Of a stretch of 64,000 bases of DNA, positions 1,456-58,830 are shown one piece after another. How positions within the stretch are numbered: the first letter of the stretch is position 1; each line of letters opens with the position of its first letter. A model generated the notes under the pieces. It was not told where the DNA came from. It did not search any database and saw only the letters and a list, made by a program, of their open reading frames with translations. The stretch lies in the NCBI GenBank assembly GCA_964016885.1, contig OZ024741.1, forward strand, positions 281,728,001 to 281,792,000, given 5' to 3'. Position numbers and translations under genes: made by a program. The stretch comes from Eledone cirrhosa (lineage: Eukaryota).

Positions 1456-3223
1456 CACCGTGTAACATTTTTCGTTCCCTGGTTCTAAGTATCATTTCCT
1501 GGTTTGTTATATCCCATTTGGGTAGTTGCTGGCCTTGTGCCTAAAGTAGAAACAATTATTATAAAAAAAACACTATTATTTAATCAGAAGTTTGGGTTTG
1601 TGGTCAGGAGTTTGATATTTCAAAATTTTCATATTTTTCAAGAAAAAACACATTTTTTTTAAATTTATCAGTTCATATAATTAAATCAACAGAGTATATA
1701 TTTATTTTATTACACAAGCTTATCAAAAGCAAACAAGTAAAAACAAATAACACTTATAAAGCAACTTATACACGTCAGAAACAACTGGATTTCCTGGATT
1801 TGCGGTTGTAGCCCAGGTCGCATTCCCGCACTAGCCCCCAGATGTAGTCCCCCATCATTTTTTCTTTGTAGTGGCCCTGGTACCTCCGCTCTATCTCTTT
1901 CACATCTTGGTGGAATCATTCGCCTTGTTCTTCTGAGTAGGCGCCCATATTGTCCTTGAATTTTTCCAAGTGAGCGTCCAGCATATGAAGTTTAAGCGAC
2001 ATCCTGCACCAGTTGCTGGTAGTTTTCAGCTCTGTAATTGCCCAGGAAGCCCTTAACAACTGCCTTGAAACAGTTCCATGCTGTTCTCTCAATCCTATTG
2101 AGCTTATTGGAGAACTCGGTAGACTCAAACACCTTCTTTATCTAAGGTCCAACAAAAATTCCACCTTTGATCTTGGCCTCAGATAAATTGGGGAAGAATT
2201 CAAGAAGGTACTTAAAAGCGGCTGATTCTTGGTTGAGAGCCTTCACAAACTGCTTCATCAACCCAACTTAATGTGCAGTGGCAGCATGAGCACAATCCTG
2301 GGATCAACCAGTGGCTCCCACATGACGTTCTGGGTCCCAACTACAAATTATGTTTGCTGCTCCCAGTTCTTTCTTTTGTAGTGGTCAGAGGTAGCTCTGC
2401 TGTCCCAAAGGCAGAGGAAGCATTGGAATTTGATAAAGCCTCCTTGGAATCCAAGCAGCAAAGCCACCATCTTGAAGTCTCCAATGATTTCCCAATTGTA
2501 CTGGTTGTATTGCAGAGCTTCCAAGAGGACTTTTACACTGTAGTAATCTTCCTTCAGGCAGACGGAATGAGCTAGGAGCAGTGTCGGGAACTTGTTTCCA
2601 TTGTGGAGGAGGACAGCCTTCAAACTTGTGGTGGAGCTGTCTATAAATAGCCGCCACTCCTTGGGCACAAACGGCACTCCAATAATGTCAAACAGTCCAG
2701 GCACGTCATGGCAGAAGCAGAGGCCATTCCTAAGAGTGTAAAAGCCTGAGAAAGGTTCATGTCGACTTCTCTGACTTGTCACCTGCACTTCCTCCTTGAC
2801 CAAGTTCCACTGCTTCATCCTGGAGACGAATAGCTCTGCATTGGACTTGGTCAGACCCATATCCCTGACTTCTTTTTAGTTTGGGAAGTGAGGAACTTTT
2901 TCTGGTACCCCAGTATCAATAAATCTCTTTAATCCACTTTTTAACAATTTTATACTTTATTGCACTTTTATAATTTTCTTTACTTTATAATTTTAATTTA
3001 ACCTGAAACATATATTAAAAAAATCATTTAACATAAGCAAATTAAACTTACATACAACGTAAAATCCAGCATACAAATATTCTAGTGAATAGCTTAGAAT
3101 GTTTACAAACCCAAACTTTTAACTGTTTAATAGCACTTTTTTAATTTATTTGAGACCTAAGCAACACAAAAAAAGTGATTACAAGCCAGGAACAGAGAAA
3201 AAAAATGTTTTTGTTACACTGTG
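1456..3223 (-). mobile_element. Chapaev-type (CMC superfamily) DNA transposon, internally deleted
   Basis: TIRs CACCGTGTAACA (1456) and TGTTACACTGTG (ends 3223); both ends flanked by TAAT; transposase remnants inside. Superfamily call rests on CAC...GTG ends and motif recall. Confidence 0.75.
1790..2900 (-). pseudogene. DDE transposase pseudogene (Chapaev3-like)
   Basis: ORF pieces with WRLFIDSS..SLKAVLLHNGN, GDFKMV, CFLCLWDSRA, LHIKLGLMKQFVKAL, MSLKLHML and SEEQGE*FHQD, broken by frameshifts and stops; N-terminus missing. Confidence 0.8.
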
Positions 3224-9160: not shown

Positions 9161-9702
9161 GTGTTAAATATACATAAATAGATATAGAAATGTATATAGA
9201 CAGACACAGGCAAACAGACAGATAGATGTTGTTTTGAGTTGCTGGGCCACTGGCCACCTTGTCAACACTACGTGGGAGGGGGGTGGGCAGATATTAAATT
9301 AACTAATGTGTGTATGTGTGTGTGTGCGTGCGCATTTGTGTTTGTACAAATAGAATGTAGAGAACCAGATTTGAGTTTTAAATACAATGTAGGAATTAGA
9401 TGATCCAGCAGGGTTTATCCTGTAAACTTTGTGGTAATTAAAAGTAAGTTGATATAGCCATTACAAGGTAAAATCAACAGCATTGACAACAAAGCAATAA
9501 CATTGGCTTTATTCTGTATATTGAGTGGAGAAGAGTTGAAATTTAATATGATGTGAACATAGAGCAAGTAGGTAGATGTTTTGTGGTTTTCCAACAGTAC
9601 ATGCTATATTCAACATTTCAAATAATTCAAATACATTATCATAGTGTCTACCAGAACCAATAGAAAAAAATATTTCAAATTATATAATGTATATTATATA
9701 AT

Positions 9703-11144
9703 TTGAAAGTTATGAAAGTGGCTGAAAGGATTTTAGCACAACTAATTAGAGAAAGGGTCAAACTAGATGAGATGCAGTTTGGTTTTGTGCCTGGGAAGAG
9801 TACAACAGATGCCCTCTTCTTGGTGAGACAATTGCAAGAGAGGTTCTTAGAGAAGAATAAGCCACTATACTTAGCCTTTGTTGACCTAGAGAAGGCCTTT
9901 GATAGGGTACCCCGATCTGTCATCTGGTGGTCCCTAAGGAAGCTAGGTGTTGAGGAATGGCTTGTGAGGACAGTGCAAACTTTGTACAGAGATACTCTCA
10001 GTAAAGTCAGGGTAGGAATGGAGTTTAGTGAGGAATTCCAGATACAAGTAGGAGTACATCAGGGTTCGGTCCTCAGCCCGCTCTTGTTCATTATAGTCCT
10101 CCAAGCCATAACAGAGGAGTTTAAGACTGGCTGTCCATGGGAACTTCTCTATGCTGACGATCTGGTTCTTATAGCAGAATCAGTAGAGGAGCTAGAGAAT
10201 AAATTCTGGCTATGGAAACAGCAGTTGGAAGCAAGAGGACTGAGAGTGAATCTAGCTAAGACAAAAGTGTTGATGAGTAGAAAAGAGGACAAAACCCTGA
10301 TTTCGTCAGGGAAATGGCCATGTTCGATATGCAGAAAAGGAACTGGCATAAATTCTATAAAATGCACACAATGCAGATCCTGGGTACACAAGAGATGTAG
10401 CGGGATAGCAGGCAAACTAATAGGTAGGGAGAAATATGTATGCAGTAGATGTACAGGGAAATTAGACAGTAGAAGTCGCATTGATAGACACATTTTTCAA
10501 ATGCAGGAGGGCGCTATAGAAGTGGTGGATAGCTTCCGGTACCTAGGAGATCAGATTAGCATGGGAGGAGGGTGTTCCGAGGCCATAGTATCTAGAATAA
10601 GGATGGGTTGGAAGAAGTTTAGGGAGCTGCTTCCTCTGTTGACGAAGAAGGATTTCTCCCTGCGTACGAAAGGCCGGTTGTATGATGCCTGTGTGAGGAG
10701 CGCGATGCTGCATGGTAGTGAGACATGGGCAGCAACTGCAGAGGACATGCGACGGCTGGAGATAAATGAGGCAAGCATGCTCCGTTGGATGTGCAGTGTA
10801 AATGTGCGTGAACGACCCAGCTTAAATGTGTTGAGAGAGAAACTGTGTCTGAGAGGGATAGAATGTAGTGTACAGGAGAGGAGACTGAGGTGGTATGGAC
10901 ATGTGATGCGCATGGAGGATGACCGATGGGTGTAGAAGTGCCAGGAATTGCCAGTTGAAGGAAGACGTGGTAGAGGTAGACCACGAAAAACATGGGCGGA
11001 GGTGGTGAGAACAGACCTCAGATCATTGAAGCTCACGGTGGAGATGACGAGGGACCATGACGAGTGGAGAGATGCTGTGCTGAATAAGACCTGTCCCACC
11101 CTTGCAAGCAGGGAAAAGCGGACGTAAAATAATGATGATGATGA
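9703..11144 (+). mobile_element. RTE-clade LINE, 5'-truncated (RT, PHD-like finger, C-terminus, short tail)
   Basis: QFGF, FVDLEKAFDRV, GVHQGSVLSP, YADD, FRYLG, HGSETW, LRWYGHV and GRPRKTW motifs; one premature TAG at 10933, frame continues to TAA at 11125-11127; (GAT)n tail; possible TATATAA TSD. Confidence 0.95.
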
Positions 11145-17030: not shown

Positions 17031-18309
17031 GCTGTGAATATTTGACCAATATTTTATTATTTGAATCCCTGAAAGATGAGAAGGCAATGTTGATGTTAGT
17101 AAGATTTGAACTTTGTAAAGATATGGAACTAAATACAACATTTTGTCCAATGCTCTACTGACTTCGCCTCTCTGATGATTTGGAAAAATGAAAACCAAAT
17201 ATTTATATCTAATATGGAACAAATAACATTTTCTTCTAATATGTAGTACAGAGGTTTTAACTAAATAAGGTGTTTTAATGTCTAATTTCCTATAGTTTCT
17301 TTTACATATTCTTAAAAATCAATTGAAACAATACTCACACAAAAGTAAGTCCTATATATATATATATATACATTTTTTTTTTTTGGTTCACTGAATAAGT
17401 AATTCAAAACAAAAGCAAAAATATTTGGTTTGAAAGTGTTAATGATTATTTACAAAACTACTTTTACTTCTCAAAAGAAATCCTGTTTTTTTTTTAAGTG
17501 ATGCTAAAAAGGATATTATTGGATAGGAGAAAATAAATACATAAGTGCTAATATCAGATGTTGCTAATTGCTCAAAATCTCTTTTGGGGAATAAAAATAG
17601 GATCAACAATTTTATTATTATATATCTTGAAAACGAAAAATGAAAAGCATTTTCTCAAGATATCAAAAACAAAATCATACAAAGAAAATAAAAATCATGT
17701 TATAAGTGTTCTAAAAAATATCTCTGATATACTATTACTAGAAAATAACCAAATTAGAATAAATAAACGAAATGTAAATATGCTATGGCTTAATATCAAA
17801 AATATTCTTGATATTATAGTGAACATAGATACATGGAATTTAAATTTCACTCTTGAAGTAGTTTTTAAATTTACCACTCGCGCGCACGCAAAGCTGAGGG
17901 GATAAAGTTAATTATAAAGAGTAGTCATGTACACAGTGATGCTATAAACTAAGGTGACGACCATTCGAGATGGAAAAAGGAGTTGCCATCGGTACATCCA
18001 CATCTTTAAATTTTTTTTTCTGTAACACTTTAATGAGTGTACTTTTAATAAAATACAGTTTCAATTAATTCAAGAAAAACTTTTAAAGGATTTGTTAAAA
18101 TGATTAATTATTTCATTGCTAAGATAGAAACTTAATATATGCTTCTTATATTAAAATAAGGTAGGAATTGAAATTAGAACCATTTAAAATGGGTGGTTTT
18201 GTTTCATAGAACCAGAACTGGTTTAGGTTGGGTTGATATCAAAAGGGTTGATCAACACAGGTTTATTTTTGTTTTGATATATATATATATATTGGAGGTG
18301 GGAGATCAG

Positions 18310-31650: not shown

Positions 31651-31721
31651 AATATGCTCTTCCTTTTTCCCAGCCAGTATATCTTGGACTACATTATCAA
31701 ATAACGTACTACAAATAACGT

Positions 31722-32315
31722 ACTAGAACCTGTGGCAGTGTACTATTAAAAGGGTTAAGTAGAACCCAAGGCAGTGTACTCTTAAAAGGGTTAAGTAGAA
31801 TCTGAGGCAACGTGCTATTAAAAGGGTTAAGTAGAACCTGAGGCAACGTGCTATTAAAAGGGTTAAGTAGAACCTGAGGCAACGTGCTATTAAAAGGGTT
31901 AAGTAGAACCTGAGGCAACGTGCTATTAAAAGGATTAAGTAGAACCTGAGGCAGTGTACTATTAAAAGGGTTAAGTAGAATCTGAGGCAGTGTACTATTA
32001 AAAAGGTTAAGTAGAACCTGATCAAGTGTACTATTAAAAGAGTTAAGTAGAACCAGAGGCAACATGATATTAAAGGGTTAAGTAAAACCAGAGGCAACAT
32101 GATATTAAAAGGTTAAGTAGTACCTGAGTTTGTGTACTATTAAAAGAGTTAAGTAGAACCAGAGGCAACATGATATTAAAAGGGCTAAGTAGAACCAGAG
32201 GCAACATGATATTAAAAGGGTTAAGTAGTACCTGAGGCAACATGCTATTAAAAGGGTTAAGTAGTACCTGAGTTTGTGTACTATTAAAAGGGTTAAGTAG
32301 TACCTGAGGCAGTGT
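31722..32315. repeat. 36-bp minisatellite, about 16 copies
   Basis: Unit GTAGAACCTGAGGCAACGTGCTATTAAAAGGGTTAA. Confidence 0.97.
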
Positions 32316-32476
32316 TTTAACCTCACTAGTCAGAAAGAACATACAAGGATTATCAGCACAGCTGATCTTGTTCAAGCTAACTAACAACAAAAAATGTGAA
32401 TACAAAAGATCTAAACCAACTGAAGTGGAATGAGTAGATAAAGTATGGACTATTGGAAAGTTTGAAGGTAAGTTAA

Positions 32477-33170
32477 CCCTTTCATTATTATATTTCTAAT
32501 GAAATACACTGTATTTGAATATATTAAAGAATTTGGAGCGATTTATTGAAGTCATTACTTATTTCATTACAAAAAAATAAATAATGTTGGAAGGAATTGA
32601 AATAGAAATAGAAGCTTTGCCATAATATTTTGACTAAATGATATAGTCTAACAATGGGGCATATAAACCCACTGAATGGAAAAAGATGGGTATCAGCACA
32701 CATGGGAGTCGAACACACACCTTGTTTGCCAGATAAGTACGCTACCATAATGGTAGTGTACTTATCTGGCAAACATGAACCCACCCAGCTTTTTCCATTG
32801 TTTCAGCACCATTTATAAATAATGGAAAAAGCTAGATGGGTTCATTGGTGTAATGGTAGCGTACTCGTCCGGCAAATGAGAAGTGTTGGTTCAACTCCTG
32901 TGTGTGCTGATACCTATCTTTTTCCTTTCACTGGATTTATATACCTCATTATTAGACTATATCATTTAGTCAAAATATTACCGCAAAGCTTTTATTTCTA
33001 TTTCAATTCCAAACTTCACTTGCGGCATTCCAAATATACTTCCTTTGTTTAATGTTGGAAGGTTTTAATTTAAATAAAAACCCTTCAAAATGGGTGTGTT
33101 TTTTTTTTGGGGGGGGGGGGGGGGGGTCATAAAATCAGATGCTATTTGGGATAGATTGGAATCAGAAGAG
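32477..33170. mobile_element. piggyBac-like MITE (P1) hosting a fold-back insertion
   Basis: TTAA-CCCTTT ... GAAGAG-TTAA with the P1 internal motif. Confidence 0.7.
32595..33049. mobile_element. Fold-back element with two divergent tRNA-like heads and a 13-bp TSD
   Basis: TAATGTTGGAAGG at 32582-32594 and 33050-33062; inverted arms spanning 32593-33010; A-box TGGTGTAATGG and B-box GGTTCAACTCC. Confidence 0.85.
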
Positions 33171-35657: not shown

Positions 35658-35972
35658 AGAGTTCAAATCCCGCCGAGGTTAACTTTGCCTTTCATCCTTA
35701 CGGGGTCGATAAAATAAAGTACCAGTAATGTACTGGGTAATTGATGGCCTTGTGCCTAAAGTAGAAACAATTATTAGTTAGGGCAGTGAATTGGCAGTAT
35801 CGGTAGAGGGTCGGTCGCCATGCTTTGACGCATAGAGTTACAGCCCTTGCCATTCTGAGTTCAAATCCCGCCGAGGTTAACTTTGCCTTTCATCCTTACG
35901 GGGTCGATAAAATAAAGTACCAGTAATGTACTGGTTAATTGCTGGCCTTGTGCCAATAGTAGAAACAATTAT
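35658..35972 (+). mobile_element. Two tandem young family A SINEs
   Basis: Near-identical cores to the copies at 30009 and 50178. Confidence 0.9.
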
Positions 35973-36160
35973 TAGTTATTCTATTGCAAAGATAGTGACT
36001 TAACATATAGTGACTTAACATATGGTTCTTATACCAAATAATGTTGGAAGATTTTAATTTAAATAGGTATTTTGATACCAGCCTGCTAGTTTTAAGCAGG
36101 TTTGTATCAAGAATGATTATAGCCGAGATCACAGCACAGCTACCTCAGTAACTATGTAAT

Positions 36161-36347
36161 AATTGTTTCTACTTTTGGCACAAGGCCAGCAATTACCCAG
36201 TGCATTACTGGTACTTTATTTTATCAACCCTGTAAGGATGAAAGGCAAAGTTAACCTCGGCGAGATTTGAACTCAGAATGGGAAGGGCCGTAACTATGTG
36301 TCAAAGCATGGTGTCCGACCCTCTACCGATACTGCCAATCCACTGCC
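36161..36347 (-). mobile_element. Full-length family A SINE with TSD
   Basis: CTATGTAAT duplicated at 36152-36160 and 36348-36356. Confidence 0.9.
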
Positions 36348-37069
36348 CTATGTAATCATGCCAAACAGTGTTTCAATACTGTTTATACATCAGCTTACTC
36401 ACTCAGTATAGAGACAAGAATAAACTATAGCTTAAATACATTTTGCATATAAAACATCTGCTGGAGATGCTCATTATGCTCATCTGCATACTGTGCAGGC
36501 TTGACTAGCTGAGGCTAATCAGAAGTATCACTAATATAGCGTGATTCATATACACCTCTATTATAAATCCTGATATGTTAGTGTTACTGGTAATCTACTG
36601 TAAAGAATAGAAGAGTTTTAGAATAAAAGGTTATCATTCACTATTTACAGAGTACAGATAGAATGTTTGTGTAAACAACAGAGAAAGAAGCAGAGTAGAG
36701 AATGAGGGTGACTATTTGAATAGAAATGGGTGGAATAGAAATGGGTGGAGTGAGAAGGGTAAGAAGAGATAAAAAAGAGGACAGAAATAAATGTGGTGAA
36801 ATATTTAAAAAAAAAAAAAAATTCAAAACCAGACCAACTTGCTATAAAAGTCTAACAGATCTATTTCTAAAAAATATTTCAGGAATTATATGCCATAGTA
36901 GTAATATGGAATCATTCAAACATTGTATTTGTTGTTGAAGAAAAGAGTTGCTACACGATTACCATTTTTGTTTTCTTTGAACATGTTAAAATCTATTTGA
37001 ATAATAGAAATCCAAATATATATTACTATTAGTAAGAACAGATTAATGGCTGATTTCAGTTACGGTTAA

Positions 37070-43179: not shown

Positions 43180-45821
43180 CCCTTTAGCATTTACATTACT
43201 CTATATATATCATCATCAACGTTTAACGTCCGTGTTCCATGCTTGCATGGGTTTGGACGAGGGTAGTCCCACTTGAGGCAAGAGTGATTGTCTTGCTCGC
43301 ATAGGACTGTCTGGCAGGTTTTCTACAGTTGGATGCCCTTCCTAACACCAACCACATTTACAGTGTGGGTCTGGGAGGTTTTTACCGTGTTGCCTACACG
43401 GCCACATTACAGCGTGGACTGTGTGTTTTTTTGTCGTGACACCTACACGATCTCATTTGTTTCGGCCTGGATGGTGTGGCACCAACATAACTTTACATAG
43501 AACGGGGTGGTGTGGATGGGGCGGGGGGGGGGGGGGGTATTTTGTTAGAGATGCCTACTGGCTGTAGTAGATTTTACTATGTATTTAGGTAAGGCGGGTC
43601 TTCTCTGTTACTGAGTACCACCAAAGGTCTCGGTCCAGTGACATTGTCTTGGAGAGGTGTAAGTGTGTGAGGTCGGAGTTTATCAGCTCGTCCCAGGTTT
43701 TTCTAGGTCTGCCTATTCCGTGGCTACCGTCTATCTTTATTGCCCTGCACTTTGTTATACAGCTATCGACTTTCATGCGCATCACGTGTCCATACCAACG
43801 TAGCCTTCTCTTGAGTAAACAACATCTGATCCCTCTTATTTCTAATTTTTTCCTTAGTTCGTTTATGCTTTGCCGTTCACGTATATTACTGTTACACATC
43901 CAGCGGAGCATGCAAGCTTCGTTCCTCTCTAGTCTGCGTATATCCTCTGCACACAATGCCCAGGTCTCACTGCCATGCAACATTGCTGTTTGTATGCAGG
44001 CATCGTACAACCTGCCTTTCATTTTTAGGGAGAACCCTTTAGCAGCTAATAGTGGTATAAGCTCTCTGAACTTTTTCCAACCAGTTCTGACTCTAGCTAC
44101 TGTACTTTCAGAGCACCCTCCCCCACTGCTAATTTTATCACCCAGGTAACGGAAACTGTCCACTATTTCTATAGAACCCTCTGCGCAATTGAAAGAGCTA
44201 GTATTTTGTGGGCACTTGCTGCTACTTATTGCACCAGAGCACCGGCCACATGTAAAATCTATGTTCTTAGTTAACTTACCTGTGATCCCACTACATCTTT
44301 TATGCACCCATACTTTGCATTTAGGACATAAAATGGAGTTTCTACCTACGCCTTTCCTACACACCGAGCATGACCATTTCCCAGAAGGGACCGCCGCCTT
44401 ATTTTCTTTCCTACAAACTAGAACTTTAGTCTTAGCCAGGTTAATTTTAAGTCCTTTTGATTCTAGGCCGTGCTTCCATGTTTGGAATTTCTTTTCTAGC
44501 TCGGCCATTGATTCCGCTAAGAGTGTCAGGTCGTCTGCGTATAGGAGTTCCCATGGGCAGCCGGTCTTGAACTCCTCTGTTATAGCCTGAAGGGCAATAA
44601 TAAATAGTAGGGGGCTGAGAACAGAGCCCTGATGGACGCCAACTTTTACGCTAAACTCTTCACTATATTCGTTGTTAATTCTAACCTTGCTGACTGTTTC
44701 TTTATACATGGCTTGTATAGCTCTCACAAGCCATTCGTCAATGCCTAGTTTTCTAAGAGCCCACCAGATAATGGAGCGGGGGAACTCTGTCGAAGGCTTT
44801 CTCCAAGTCGACAAAAGCTAAGTAGAGGGGTTTACCTTTAGCTAGGTACTTCTCCTGTAGTTGTCGTACAATGAAAAGAGCGTCTGTGGTACTTTTGCCT
44901 GACACAAACCCGAACTGCATTTCATCTAGGTCAATTCTCTCTCTGATTAGTTGTGCTATTACTTTTTCCGTGACCTTCATGACCTGGTCGATTAATTTAA
45001 TGCCTCTATAGTTACTCCTATCTAGGGCGTCTCCTTTACCCTTATAACAGTTAACGATGATGCTGCTATGCCAGTCCTTCGGAACAACCCCATTCTGTAC
45101 GACTTGGTTAACTATGCGGGTGACCATGGTGTGTCCCACCGTGCCAGATGCCTTCAGCATCTCAGCAACTATTTCCGAAGTCCCAGCCGCCTTACCCGTC
45201 TTCATATCCTTGATTGCCTTACTTATTATACTCCCCTCGACTAACACTGCTGGTCCCTCTATTGGGTCGATATGGGGGAGACTGTCTTTCTCCCATTTAT
45301 TCTCCTCATTTAGTAGCCTTTCATAGTGACACTTCCAAGCTACCTTCTTATCAGCATCGGTGATGGCAAGTATGCCATCATCGTTAAGTACACACTTCTC
45401 CCCGACAATATCACGGTTTTCCTTGACGCATTGCCTAGCAATCCTGAACACCTCACGTTTTTGGTCATCCCGTTGTAGAACATGCTTGAACTTTCTTTCC
45501 TCAGCTTCCCTTCTTGCTAAGTACACTTGTCTCCTAGCTTCCCTCCTGGCCACTTGATAGTCTTCTCTACCTCCCCCATCCCGCCATACTTTCCAAGCCT
45601 GCTTTTTGGCCTTAATTGACCCCTCCACCTTACTATATATTTACTATTGTATTTTCCCGGTAAAGGCTTTATCTCCCATAATATTGAATCTACAAGATTT
45701 TGATGTTATTTATTTTGAGAACAATACCTTAACATCAGTATGAGTGGCTAGTTACGGCCAGTTTGAACAAAAAGAGGTGAGAGAATTCTGGGCAGATATG
45801 GCCAGTTTAAACGCTAAAGGG
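43180..45821. mobile_element. piggyBac-like MITE (family P2) interrupted by an RTE LINE
   Basis: TTAA-CCCTTTAGC ... GCTAAAGGG-TTAA. Confidence 0.85.
43209..45632 (-). mobile_element. RTE-clade LINE, 5'-truncated, long 3' UTR
   Basis: ORFs 44753-45628 and 43585-44814 are joined by one frameshift; NYRGIKL, QFGF, YADD and PHD-like finger; TSD CTATATAT at 43201-43208 and 45633-45640. Confidence 0.95.
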
Positions 45822-47097: not shown

Positions 47098-48399
47098 TGA
47101 ATATAATGAAAGCATAGAAATGTCTGGTATGCATTTCTTTACCATAATTCTTGAACAGTATCATTCTGTATAAGACAAACAATTAGTAAAATTGTTTATT
47201 TTCTATAATAGTTCTCAGTTGTGTGTATAAGCTGTAACCACACGAGTAAGGTTACACTAAGAAAGTGATGGGAAAACTTTTCAATCTGAAAGATTATTCT
47301 TAGCTTTAAAAAACATGAGAGTATCAGAGCCACATCATTTATTTATATACAAGAAAACATTAAGTTAGCTAATTTCTTCTTACTCAATGTGATTTTTAGC
47401 TTTAAATCTTATCTGAAATGCATAAGTGTCAAGGTTATAAATTGCAGATTTAATGAAATTTAAAAAAAAATTAAAAAAATCAGAGCACCTAGGATATACT
47501 GAGATAGGCTGAAGCAGTGATTCACAAACTGCTCCAGAGCGAACAAACTCATAATACTTACTTTCTCATACAGTATATTATCATAAACACTAGTTGTTTA
47601 TTTCAGCTCTTTTCATACCAATCCATATAAAACTGCTTCTGATTTTTATTTAAATTAAAATCTTCCAACATCATTTTATATAAGAACCATATAAGTAAAA
47701 CTATCTTAGTAATGAAATAATTAATTTTAGTAAATCCCTCATTAATTAATTGAAATAGAGTGTATTTCACTAAAAATATGGTCACAAAAAGGCTAACAGC
47801 ATCAAATTTGGGGAAAGGGCAAAATTGGTTAAATCAACCCCAGTACATGACTGGTACTTTGTCTTTCATTCTTTCCGGGCTGATAAAATAAAGTTGACAA
47901 TGGCAGGATTTGAACTTAGAATGCAAAGAGCTAGAACAAATATCATAATGGCATTTTATCTGATGGCCCACTAATTGTGCCAACCCATCATCCTTTACGA
48001 GAAAATAAAATTGTCTAATACTTTTTATGTTGTATTTTCCAAATGTTCTTATGTTTTGAGTGAACAGCTCTGAAAGTACTAGATATTTATAAGAATTTCT
48101 CTTTTGAGTTTTAATGGCAGGATATATCAACAACATAACTTACATATAAATACGAAATATATTTTTATTACGTAAACGCCACATATTAAAATGTTCCTTG
48201 TCTACTTGGAGCCATAATTTAACCCTTTCACTACCATACCTCCAGTGGAAGACACTGTCTATGATTCATAAGTACTTTATCAACTGGTATTTGAAACAAT
48301 GTGATAAGGTTCTTACCTAAAATTATGATAGCTTTTAGATAAAGATATCTATACCAACTGCCAGGTCTTACACTTAAAACTCCAAAGCTTTCTATCTTC

Positions 48400-56371: not shown

Positions 56372-58830
56372 TATATTTCTTTATTTGCCACAAGGGCACA
56401 CAAGAAAAGGGAACAAACAAGGACACATGCTGGGGATTTTACATACGATCGTGTAAAAAAAAAGTTTAAACAATCTTCGGTCTCCGTTTGACTCAGGACT
56501 GCAGCTCTGTCAGCGAGACAAGTTGCAGGAAGACTTGTCTCACAAACGGGGCCCACACCGGTTGGTCAGTGAGAAATACCTGCAGATGCAGTAGCCACAG
56601 AGCGTGTTTGCGCATCATCAGCCATGGCATTCCCAGTCCTCCGTTTGAAGGGTACTCGCAGCAGACGGATCTTCTACCAGTGGGGCTTGCTTCTTCCAAA
56701 GGAATTGGAAGAGCATGTGTTCCATCTTGATGAGGTATTCACGGAGACAAGGCACGATGGTCAAGCGGTAGTAGATGACGAACGCTATGAAAGTGTTTGC
56801 CACCTCCACTCGACCTTTCAAGGATAGTTTGCACTCTGCCTGCTGTGCAAATGCCTTGGTCATGACCTTGTTCCAGTTTTTCTCCACCTGGAGATCCAGA
56901 CCGAACCAGACTCCAAGCAATTTCACCGGTTCTCCCGTCCAGCGTCCGACGACGCTGTCGGACGGCATCGGTTTGCCTCTCCACGTTCCGAGTTGCAAAC
57001 CGATAAATCTGTCCAGGTTGAGTTTTGCTCCTGTGAGCTTTTTGTATTCTAGCAGTAAGTTGCCGATCGCCCCGATTTCTGAGGTTTTCGACACCATTAC
57101 TGTCATGTCGGCGGCATAAGCTGACACCCGCAGTCCCAACGGGATGCCCTGCAAATGCTCCTACTTCCGCAGTAGTGGCTCTAGAGTCAATACGTACAGA
57201 ATGGAGGAGAGAAGACATCCCTATCAGATGGAACGCGTGATTGGGAACGGCTCCAATAGTAGCCGTTCACCTTGACTGTCGAGCAGATGGTATGCATGGC
57301 TGTGATCCAGCCTCTGAAGACGGGTCCGAAACTGCTTCCAAGTATGGATGGTCGACCCTATCAAATGCCTTAGACTGATCTAAATTGATCAGAGCTCCAC
57401 CGAAGCCGGGTTTACACCCACCCTCTTTATGATGTATCGCATGAGGTGGAGGTTGTGAATGAACCTGGTTGGAATTGCACGAGGTTCTCGACAACAAGCG
57501 CCAGCCTCGTTGCTAACACCTTGGCCAAAACCTTTAACTCTCTGTTTAGGAGAGTTATGGCCTGAAGTTACTTATTTCATCCCCCTTGTTCCTGTCTTTC
57601 CTAATCAGCATCACTACGCCCCTGCCTACAGAACTGGGAATTCTGCCGTTCTGCTGCCAGTTGCAGTAGATGGCTTCGAGGATGCCGGAGAACAAGTCCT
57701 GCATGCATATGTAAAATTCATAGGGTAGACCATCTAGACCGGGTGATTTGCGTTTCCTGCAGCGGCCCAAAGCGTCCAGTATCTCAGTGGCTGTGATCGG
57801 TCTTTCGAGAGATGCGGCAGGCCATCGAGGTATGAACCGAAGTCCATTGCCTCGTTCGGCGCACTGCTCTGCTCGAACAGTTGCACAAAGTGCCGCTGAA
57901 AGGCCGTACACATCTGCTTGGAATCAAGTAGCACGCGTCCGTTTTGGTCTTTCAAAGACCTAATCGTGGACTTGTTGCCACTTTTCATCTCTGCCACTCG
58001 GGTCCAGCCAACAGCTTTTGCTCTCTCGTTTCCTAGAGCACATGATCTACTCTTGACAATGCAGTCTTCCTCTTTCGTATCGAAGAACTGGTCCTCTTCT
58101 CTAAGGCTAATTCTTTGCTAAAAGCTATGGACTCTACTCTAATTGCTCGCTCGAGAAAGTACCACCACCTATTGTTGACAATGGCTCCCGTCAACTGTTG
58201 CTTAACTAAACTACTTATCCGTCTACTGTAGGCTTTATGCGTCGGTAACGACATGTTCAGCTTCCAGTATCCGGGTCCCTGTCTATGCATACTATCATGG
58301 TTGACTATGCAGGTGACTAGTTTGTGGTCTGAATAGGCAACCATGTACATTTGTGGACAGCTTAACATTTTCCTGTCTCTCTTTAATTAAGAATCTATCT
58401 AATTACGATCTAGATGTCCTGCTGCGAACTGTGGTGCAGTAGGGAAATCTAGTCGATACCTATCATCCAGTTGGAATTGGCCGATTAAATTTTTGGGGCT
58501 GTTGCACCCCCCTCTACTGGGGCATGTTCCTACATAGTCCCAACGTGCATCTAGGATACCATTCCAGTCCCCCACTAAAAGCAAGACGTTCACAGAAAAG
58601 ACTCTAGACACTTAAAGATCTGGCCGCGATGTCCCAGTCGGGGCATAAACAGCCACCAGTCTGAAGGCTCCACCTCCAATACTGTTCACGTCTAGGACCA
58701 CCAGTCTACCCTCCACGTCAAAATGTATTTCGAGATCCAAGTTTTTCAAAAATATAACAGCCACTCCCCCTCCACCTCTTGGCTGACAGAGAGATGCGTA
58801 GATCTCAAAGTCATTAAAGATAGGGGTTAG
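56372..58830 (-). mobile_element. Decayed Tx1/L1-clade LINE ORF2 (AP endonuclease and RT)
   Basis: GGGVAV, EGRLVVLD, VAVYAP, VGDWN, SDHKLV, GPGYWKLN, KSPGLDGLPYEFY, NFRP, LDQSKAFDRVDH, AYAADMT and LSLKGRV; many frameshifts; AATAAA near 56380. Confidence 0.92.

What the first reader, a model, noticed from the sequence alone, without database searches (positions are those of the whole stretch)
32582..33062. Fold-back retroposon with two divergent tRNA-like Pol III heads, an unpaired tail and a 13-bp TSD
Seen: a 455-bp insert flanked by TAATGTTGGAAGG, with the empty-site sequence visible in another MITE copy near 36040. The inverted arms span 32593-33010, and each carries a tRNA-like head pointing outward (right: TGGTGTAATGG..GGTTCAACTCC; left, minus: ATGGTAGCG..GTTCGACTCC) followed by a TTTTT terminator-like run. 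There is an extra ~24-bp-stem hairpin at about 32724-32772 and a ~40-bp unpaired right tail with no poly(A). Known: inverted terminal repeats with a short one-sided tail are characteristic of Penelope-like insertions, and long TSDs indicate target-primed insertion. Inference: a SINE-like Pol III element mobilised by Penelope-type machinery rather than a LINE, and a strong dsRNA source for A-to-I editing or siRNA if read through. This is my best candidate for an undescribed system.
Basis: partly seen in the sequence, partly recalled or inferred. Interest (0 to 1): 0.75.

Follow-up and report, generated by a model that had tools for sequence, protein, structure and literature searches.

The report
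Penelope-type passenger with tRNA-like core
This fold-back is one decayed copy of a widespread 261-base non-coding repeat that carries a tRNA-like segment and sits back-to-back with one short and one long end, as Penelope retroelements do, so it is likely copied by Penelope enzymes rather than by the LINE enzymes that ordinary SINEs use, and its two 'heads' are likely a by-product of that insertion rather than a designed pair.

Summary
The anatomy is real: 13-bp TSD, head-to-head arms, 39-bp one-sided tail, no poly(A). But the unit is not a two-headed element. It is a one-headed, 261-bp, circularly permuted repeat (estimated about 1,000 segments; 138 loci analysed). Of 48 classifiable head-to-head pairs, 42 have one end at unit position ~218 and the other at ~261 (p=4e-8). 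The inversion point varies. TSDs of 10 bp or more occur in 23 of 42 such pairs (control 12%). That is the Penelope-like element (PLE) signature; a neighbouring ordinary SINE shows none of it. The family fails SINE membership: 34 of 39 box-A segments run on upstream of the tRNA, and a T5 follows it. It has no hammerhead. No autonomous PLE sharing its end was found among 80 PLE loci. 5' truncations pile up at the T-stem, pointing to a folded RNA template. The left head lacks an intact box A; the arms decay independently, with no editing signal. Verdict: likely a ribozyme-free, tRNA-containing PLE passenger, a new variant of known non-autonomous PLE derivatives. The scan has noted a ~260-bp family of this description before in this genome.

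The parts
32582..32594 (+). Left target-site duplication (13 bp; last 2 nt shared with the element's short end)
   Evidence: single copy in paralogous empty sites
32595..32803 (-). Inverted arm: unit positions 220 (short 3' end) down to 30
32680..32684 (-). T5 run of the inverted arm
32694..32762 (-). Crippled tRNA-like segment: box B at 32705-32715, 5' half of box A lost
   Evidence: Rfam 20.1 bits, below cut-off 29; alignment
32723..32775 (.). 26-bp inner hairpin: local inverted duplication of unit ~65-90 replacing unit 58-64
   Evidence: exact in a short-read contig covering 32694-32872
32804..32813 (.). 10-nt unaligned spacer at the head-to-head junction
32814..33049 (+). Direct arm: unit positions 27 to 261 (long, tailed 3' end)
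32821..32928 (+). Clamp stem enclosing the tRNA-like segment (32821-32835 with 32914-32928 here; 17 bp with one mismatch in the family consensus)
   Evidence: longest in 60 shuffles: 12 bp
32839..32909 (+). tRNA-like segment, anticodon GGC; box A 32846-32856, box B 32888-32898
   Evidence: ARAGORN; Rfam 30.8 bits
32919..32923 (+). T5 run 10 nt after the tRNA-like segment
   Evidence: runs of 5 or more T in 92 of 129 segments
33011..33049 (+). One-sided tail (39 bp) between the two preferred 3' ends
33050..33062 (+). Right target-site duplication (first 2 nt shared with the element)
32473..33098 (.). Host: a very high-copy MITE-like repeat beginning TTAACCCTTT into which the element inserted (right end approximate)

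Best explanation
The insert is a head-to-head copy of a 261-bp non-coding, tRNA-containing repeat that was likely copied into the genome in trans by a Penelope-like (PLE) reverse transcriptase-endonuclease. Shown: two preferred 3' ends about 40 nt apart (unit ~218 and ~261), pairs that use one of each, variable junctions, 8-17 bp TSDs mostly on paired insertions, AT-rich or (TA)n targets, partial tandems up to 1.4 units, and 5' stops clustered at the T-stem. Inferred: the enzyme nicks both target strands about 10-13 nt apart; each nick primes a cDNA at one of the two internal start sites; both cDNAs stall at RNA structure and their ends are joined head-to-head; repair leaves the TSD and the one-sided tail. 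Inferred, weaker (about 40%): the intact A and B boxes made the tRNA-like part a Pol III promoter that drove the next unit in a tandem source, with the T5 read through; the template must be multi-unit or circular because most copies run past the head. This copy is old and inert; both cDNAs happened to run almost a full unit, which gives two heads.
For: Architecture: 72 head-to-head pairs in 138 loci; of the 48 with both outer ends classifiable, 42 short+tail, 5 short+short, 1 tail+tail (p=3.9e-8). TSD of 10 bp or more (one mismatch allowed) in 23 of 42 versus 12% for cross-paired flanks and 7 of 72 single copies; exact TSDs of 8-17 bp in 13 of 24 pairs free of (TA)4. Only 4 of 72 junctions invert at the same unit position; short arm longer in 21, tail arm in 18, tie in 3. 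Control: the ordinary SINE in the same loci starts at its head in 70 of 130 hits and gives 0 head-to-head among 18 adjacent pairs, against 71 of 91 for this family. RNA template: 28 of 44 segments reaching unit 109-116 stop there, against 10-25% per 8-nt bin downstream (p=7e-11, and upstream flanks are random at 23% identity). PLEs with GIY-YIG domains are abundant here (150 scored of 10,596 candidates; Hydra-like 150 of 42,798). Literature: partial tandems, inverted 5'-truncated copy and 30-40 bp one-sided tail (PMC8557442, passages); two internal RT start sites bounding the tail, both strands nicked and extended, predicted dimer (PMC11167929, parts 1-2 of 4); 8-10 bp TSD with inverted pLTRs and none with a direct-only insertion (PMC3846280, passages).
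Against: No autonomous partner found: the unit has no significant match to 50 GIY-YIG loci (best local score 44.5, shuffles up to 45) or 30 Hydra-like loci; six short motifs had no hit in the held Craig 2021 supplement. No hammerhead, which canonical PLE pLTRs carry. 19 of 42 short+tail pairs show no TSD of 10 bp, and 24 of 72 pairs have an unclassifiable end. No array of two full units was found (longest run 367 nt), so the source is unseen. The T5 after the head is predicted to stop Pol III before either start site (established knowledge, not tested). End classes were defined after seeing the first 40 loci, and BLAST ends are fuzzy by several bases. Frangieh et al. report no difference in start site between strands, so the one-of-each rule is not yet shown in vitro.
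Confidence: 0.8

Rival explanations
1. The 261-bp unit is the 3' end (pLTR) of an autonomous PLE that captured a tRNA gene, and the short copies are its truncated insertions.
For: PLE copies are mostly 5'-truncated (PMC8557442); only a few of many PLE families were sampled.
Against: Every copy that runs upstream of unit position 1 runs into the preceding unit, never into an ORF (21 segments; 7 of 11 junction matches, the other 4 stop at unit 9-11). No shared non-unit flank other than nested repeats in 40 loci.
Confidence: 0.08
2. An ordinary tRNA SINE mobilised by a LINE, with L1-style twin-priming inversions.
For: Perfect A and B boxes in the consensus, cloverleaf called by ARAGORN; TSDs of 8-17 bp; RTE-like LINE ORFs in the window.
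Against: Only 5 of 39 box-A segments start near the head; poly(A) after 1 of 80 single 3' ends. Arms overlap in unit coordinates and end at two fixed internal sites, unlike twin priming on a poly(A) RNA (recalled). The true SINE beside it behaves differently.
Confidence: 0.05
3. A foldback/MITE or Helentron-type DNA element with asymmetric inverted repeats.
For: Long inverted arms; terminal hairpins predicted in the tail.
Against: Arm length and inversion point vary copy by copy; ends are asymmetric in 42 of 48; TSD length varies; 80 single-direction copies exist; truncation at RNA structure. Helentron features (no TSD, fixed subterminal repeats) are recalled, and not met.
Confidence: 0.03
4. 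PLE-mobilised as in the best explanation, but the tRNA-like segment is a captured tRNA gene with its own terminator and plays no part; the RNA comes from Pol II read-through or a pLTR-type promoter. This rivals only the promoter step.
For: T5 sits about 10 nt after the tRNA 3' end, as in tRNA genes; most copies lack the head altogether (75 of 119 stop downstream of unit 116).
Against: Boxes A and B match the recalled consensus perfectly while the acceptor stem is degenerate (3 Watson-Crick, 3 G-U, 1 mismatch), the pattern of a promoter under selection; a 17-bp clamp encloses it.
Confidence: 0.35

Closest known systems
Penelope-like elements, EN+ clades (Craig et al. 2021 PMC8557442; Frangieh et al. 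2024 PMC11167929; Arkhipova et al. 2013 PMC3846280)
   Same: Head-to-head inverted copy, partial tandem, ~40-bp one-sided tail between two 3' ends, TSD with inverted insertions, AT-rich/(TA)n targets.
   Different: No ORF, no hammerhead, 261-bp unit, contains a tRNA-like segment; no shared terminus with a sampled autonomous family.
Metazoan non-LTR retrozymes (Cervera and de la Pena 2020 PMC7229834, passages; Li et al. 2026 bioRxiv 10.64898/2026.07.22.740005, parts 1-2 of 5 plus term search)
   Same: Short non-coding permuted unit of similar size, proposed PLE-mobilised, longer TSDs.
   Different: Retrozymes are defined by a type I hammerhead and multi-unit arrays; here none, and at most 1.4 units. 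'tRNA' and 'Pol III' occur 0 times in Li et al..
Schistosoma Sm-alpha / Sj-alpha SINE-like elements (seen second-hand in PMC6765202; the primary paper is not held)
   Same: Pol III promoter in a tandem unit, upstream unit transcribing the next one.
   Different: Sm-alpha has an active hammerhead that releases monomers; PLE-type insertion anatomy was not described in the passage read.
Non-autonomous Chlamys elements such as MRC1 (PMC8557442, passage)
   Same: Non-autonomous PLE passengers without canonical hammerhead, with pLTR-like tandems.
   Different: Green algae; they share 3' ends with autonomous partners; no tRNA-like part reported in the passage read.
tRNA-derived SINEs, including octopus OR1/OR2/OK (Ohshima and Okada 1994; only cited in PMC4824008; sequences not seen)
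   Same: tRNA-like segment with A and B boxes; short, non-coding, dispersed.
   Different: Copies do not begin at the head, have no A-rich or simple-repeat tail, and insert head-to-head.

Membership tests
Non-autonomous PLE derivative | Inverted 5'-truncated copy head-to-head with the direct copy | tested here: met
   71 of 91 adjacent pairs; 72 pairs in 138 loci
Non-autonomous PLE derivative | 30-40 bp tail at one end only, between two 3' ends | tested here: met
   42 of 48 classifiable pairs; ends about 40-43 nt apart
Non-autonomous PLE derivative | Partial tandem (pLTR-like) organisation | tested here: met
   Runs up to 367 nt on a 261-bp period
Non-autonomous PLE derivative | Variable TSD, AT-rich or (TA)n target | tested here: met
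   23 of 42 versus 12% control; (TA)4 at an end in 18 of 42
Non-autonomous PLE derivative | 3' end shared with an autonomous PLE | tested here: inconclusive
   No match in 80 loci from a few families out of tens of thousands of candidates; Naiad loci not sampled in this genome
Non-autonomous PLE derivative | Mobilisation by PLE protein shown | not testable with these tools
   Needs an in vitro assay
Non-LTR retrozyme | Type I hammerhead in each unit | tested here: not met
   No ribozyme hit inside the unit in the window copy or 12 loci; no CUGANGA core seen in the consensus on either strand (by eye)
Non-LTR retrozyme | Arrays of two or more full units | tested here: not met
   Longest run 1.4 units in 138 loci plus 5 new; the sample is partial
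Non-LTR retrozyme | Circular RNA | not testable with these tools
   No RNA holder listed
tRNA-derived SINE | tRNA-like segment with A and B boxes | tested here: met
   best copy 48.6 bits
tRNA-derived SINE | Full copies begin at the tRNA head | tested here: not met
   5 of 39 stop near the head, 34 run upstream, 21 into the previous unit
tRNA-derived SINE | A-rich or simple-repeat 3' tail at one fixed end | tested here: not met
   Two internal ends; poly(A) in 1 of 80
tRNA-derived SINE | LINE-derived 3' end | not tested
   No LINE 3' ends were collected for comparison
tRNA-derived SINE | Pol III transcription through the body | not testable with these tools
   T5 after the head in 92 of 129 segments argues against
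MITE / foldback DNA transposon | Symmetric terminal inverted repeats | tested here: not met
   6 of 48 symmetric
MITE / foldback DNA transposon | Fixed TSD length | tested here: not met
   8-17 bp

The most novel reading that the evidence does not exclude
A ribozyme-free 'retrozyme': a PLE parasite in which a clamped tRNA-like module has taken the hammerhead's place, serving as Pol III promoter and as the site where host tRNA-processing enzymes cut and close a unit-length circular RNA, which a PLE dimer then copies twice from two start sites. That would be a SINE-like class that rides Penelope enzymes instead of LINEs.
Probability: 0.2. Interest if true: 0.75.

Novelty: new variant of a known kind. 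Interest (0 to 1): 0.5.

Why it matters
SINEs are taught as LINE parasites, and the known short PLE passengers in animals are defined by a hammerhead. A tRNA-containing, hammerhead-free passenger with a clean PLE footprint widens both pictures; such families are probably filed as unclassified SINEs or MITEs by pipelines. The 261-nt RNA is also a compact test substrate for an open question, how PLEs make inverted copies, tails and TSDs: the one-short-one-long rule (42 of 48) and TSDs confined to paired insertions predict that the two internal start sites seen in vitro are used one per target strand. The locus itself is an old, inert copy with no sign of function.

Tried and rejected
Partner search: unit against 30 + 20 GIY-YIG loci (Neptune-like and Penelope/Poseidon-like by motif) and 30 Hydra-like loci gave nothing above shuffles. 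Hydra-like ends are 67 nt apart and carry an ACTC..GAGT hairpin past the short end that this unit lacks (by eye). A second family (F2) shares 19 of 24 terminal bases by eye but was not traced to an ORF; two patterns for it found nothing (the first was mis-spaced). Covariation: decayed copies give no consensus structure (-1.1 kcal/mol), so folds rest on the consensus alone. Parent tRNA: the tRNA search scored only 63 candidates; best identity 48 of 71 to a repeat-borne Ala(GGC) sequence, so parentage is undetermined. Editing: A>G 3.3% versus T>C 2.2% raw, 2.4% versus 1.9% after dropping 27 polymorphic columns and CpG-like sites (p=0.04), with other A changes skewed alike; rejected as an ADAR signal. 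Expression: no RNA holder listed. Inner hairpin as a dated late event: its arms share three derived changes, but L217 has a near-identical palindrome centre and L217 and L330 have rearrangements at the same unit 62-90 bounds, so formation at insertion followed by homogenisation cannot be excluded. Literature: searches showed no paper describing a tRNA-containing, hammerhead-free PLE passenger; only listings were seen for most hits. Dfam, Repbase, the Zenodo library of PMC13282606 and bioRxiv supplements could not be seen and may hold this family. An upstream-identity line had an index bug and was redone.

Full report
Observation. The 13-bp repeat, the 455-bp insert, the arms, the inner hairpin and the 39-bp one-sided tail are all present at the stated places, far beyond chance (z = -25 as RNA, -22 as DNA). 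The right head is a recognisable tRNA-like sequence. The left one has lost half of box A and falls below the Rfam cut-off. The target is a very high-copy MITE-like repeat starting at 32473; paralogues carry the 13-mer once, and contigs skip from ~32510 to ~33052, so the repeat is a true TSD. Short-read contigs match 32694-32872 and 32843-32977 without differences, so the centre is not an assembly artefact, though that run may be the window's own sample. A second organism's run holds related pieces.

The family. A genome search gave 1,340 first-look candidates, 40 scored. With further DNA and pattern searches I collected 167 loci, 138 after removing duplicates. The unit is 261 bp and circularly permuted: a tRNA-like segment at unit 52-122 inside a 17-bp clamp (34-50 with 124-141; shuffles reach 12), a T5, then a row of predicted small hairpins. 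One 21-mer occurs 113 times exactly (control 0) and in 8 of 54 BLAST-found segments, which suggests about 800 or more segments. Median non-CpG divergence is 8%, CpG sites are about one third decayed per base; the sample leans to good copies. The window copy is unit 220 down to 30 on the minus strand, a 10-nt spacer, then 27 to 261 on the plus strand. It is unusual only in that both arms are long.

Insertion signature. 3' ends fall in two clusters, ~207-228 and ~244-276. Among 72 head-to-head pairs, 48 have both ends in these classes: 42 short+tail, 5 short+short, 1 tail+tail (p=3.9e-8 against independence); the other 24 have a broken or unclassified end. TSDs of 10 bp or more occur in 23 of 42 against 12% for cross-paired flanks, and in 7 of 72 single copies. 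Clean exact TSDs run from 8 to 17 bp (13 of 24 pairs without (TA)4). Junctions vary; 30 of 72 overlap by microhomology and 39 have a gap; either arm may be longer. The ordinary SINE that nests in these loci starts at its head in 70 of 130 hits and never pairs head-to-head (0 of 18), against 71 of 91 for this family. These features match the PLE descriptions in PMC8557442 (passages), PMC3846280 (passages) and PMC11167929 (parts 1-2 of 4), where the tail lies between two internal RT start sites and both target strands are nicked and extended.

RNA template. In the pattern-selected sample, 28 of 44 segments that reach unit 109-116 stop there, at the 3' strand of the T-stem, against 10-25% in downstream bins. 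Three copies have duplications or a deletion bounded by unit ~62 and ~90. Both point to reverse transcription through a folded tRNA-like RNA (inference). Copies do not begin at the head: 34 of 39 box-A segments run upstream, 21 into the preceding unit, and all 7 junction-pattern copies that extend past position 1 enter the preceding unit. So the template was multi-unit or circular. No run exceeds 367 nt. A T5 or longer follows the head in 92 of 129 segments, which a Pol III transcript would have to pass to reach either start site. Boxes A and B match the recalled consensus while the acceptor stem is poor; I read this as a promoter, at about 40%.

Partner. The genome is rich in PLEs. By motif the sampled loci are Neptune-like, Penelope/Poseidon-like and Hydra-like. 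None of 80 loci shares sequence with the unit above shuffle level, but they represent only a handful of families, the unit is old, and Naiad loci were not sampled. The tail length of about 40 nt fits the canonical 30-40 bp better than the 67-80 nt of the Hydra-like and F2 families here. No hammerhead was found in the unit.

dsRNA claim. Any read-through would fold, but nothing shows selection: arms of one locus differ at 348 of 2,751 non-CpG sites (12.6%) against 14.3% between loci; in this copy 16 of 168 differ and 1 change is shared. No editing-type skew survives filtering. Expression could not be examined.

Comparison and novelty. It works like a non-autonomous PLE derivative (retrozymes, MRC1, probably Sm-alpha). 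It is not a retrozyme (no hammerhead), not a textbook SINE (no fixed head start, no tail) and not a MITE. Nine literature searches showed no description of a tRNA-containing, hammerhead-free PLE passenger; the 2026 retrozyme preprint does not mention tRNA. Repeat libraries that I could not see may already list the family under another label (PMC13282606, part 1 of 3, passages and its small supplement). The taxon is inferred to be an octopod and was not confirmed. Earlier notes of this scan describe a 259-260 bp tRNA-containing PLE passenger in this genome and related families in other genomes; sequence look-ups returned nothing, so identity with those rests on size and description. They are not independent evidence; the two-primer wording of the mechanism was seen there before I wrote it.

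Verdict. Real feature, correct broad mechanism, wrong unit. New variant of a known kind; interest 0.5.

Noticed in passing
window 35659-35974, 36141-36360 and many others; L011:1297-1482: An abundant ~186-bp tRNA-type SINE; it abuts or interrupts the 261-bp unit in 41 of 138 loci, mostly at unit 160-190, a strong insertion hotspot.
   Followed up: partly
L113:287-1532: Four-copy tandem with a 319-bp period made of that SINE plus unit 161-258; a composite minisatellite. L207 and L177 show 57-bp and ~35-bp local tandem amplifications of the unit.
   Followed up: no
L099:6587-7042; L218-L277: Family F2: younger (TA)n-targeted fold-back with two ends about 80 nt apart and a hammerhead-like GAAAC stem; its long end resembles this unit's at 19 of 24 bases by eye. 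No ORF found upstream.
   Followed up: partly
L278-L307: Very abundant Hydra-like PLE family with a minimal hammerhead and two 3' ends 67 nt apart, inserted in (TA)n.
   Followed up: partly
L310, L312-L320: A dispersed repeat with long shared flanks that carries a well-formed tRNA (53-71 bits), usually with the anticodon GGC, unusual for eukaryotic tRNA-Ala (recalled).
   Followed up: no
window 32473-33098; 36037-36065; 47643-47692; 18124-18195: Host repeat starting TTAACCCTTT, piggyBac-like by recalled terminus, at extremely high depth in contigs.
   Followed up: partly
window 31720-32310: Minisatellite of about 38 bp, roughly 15 copies, just left of the host repeat.
   Followed up: no
window 9688-10935, 43585-45640, 56618-58386: LINE reverse-transcriptase fragments (the first two RTE-like by appearance); an unidentified 175-aa frame at 2348-2875 (-).
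   Followed up: no
L309, L311 (G000:C1 243.65-243.68 Mb): Cluster of tRNA-Thr genes in repeated context.
   Followed up: no
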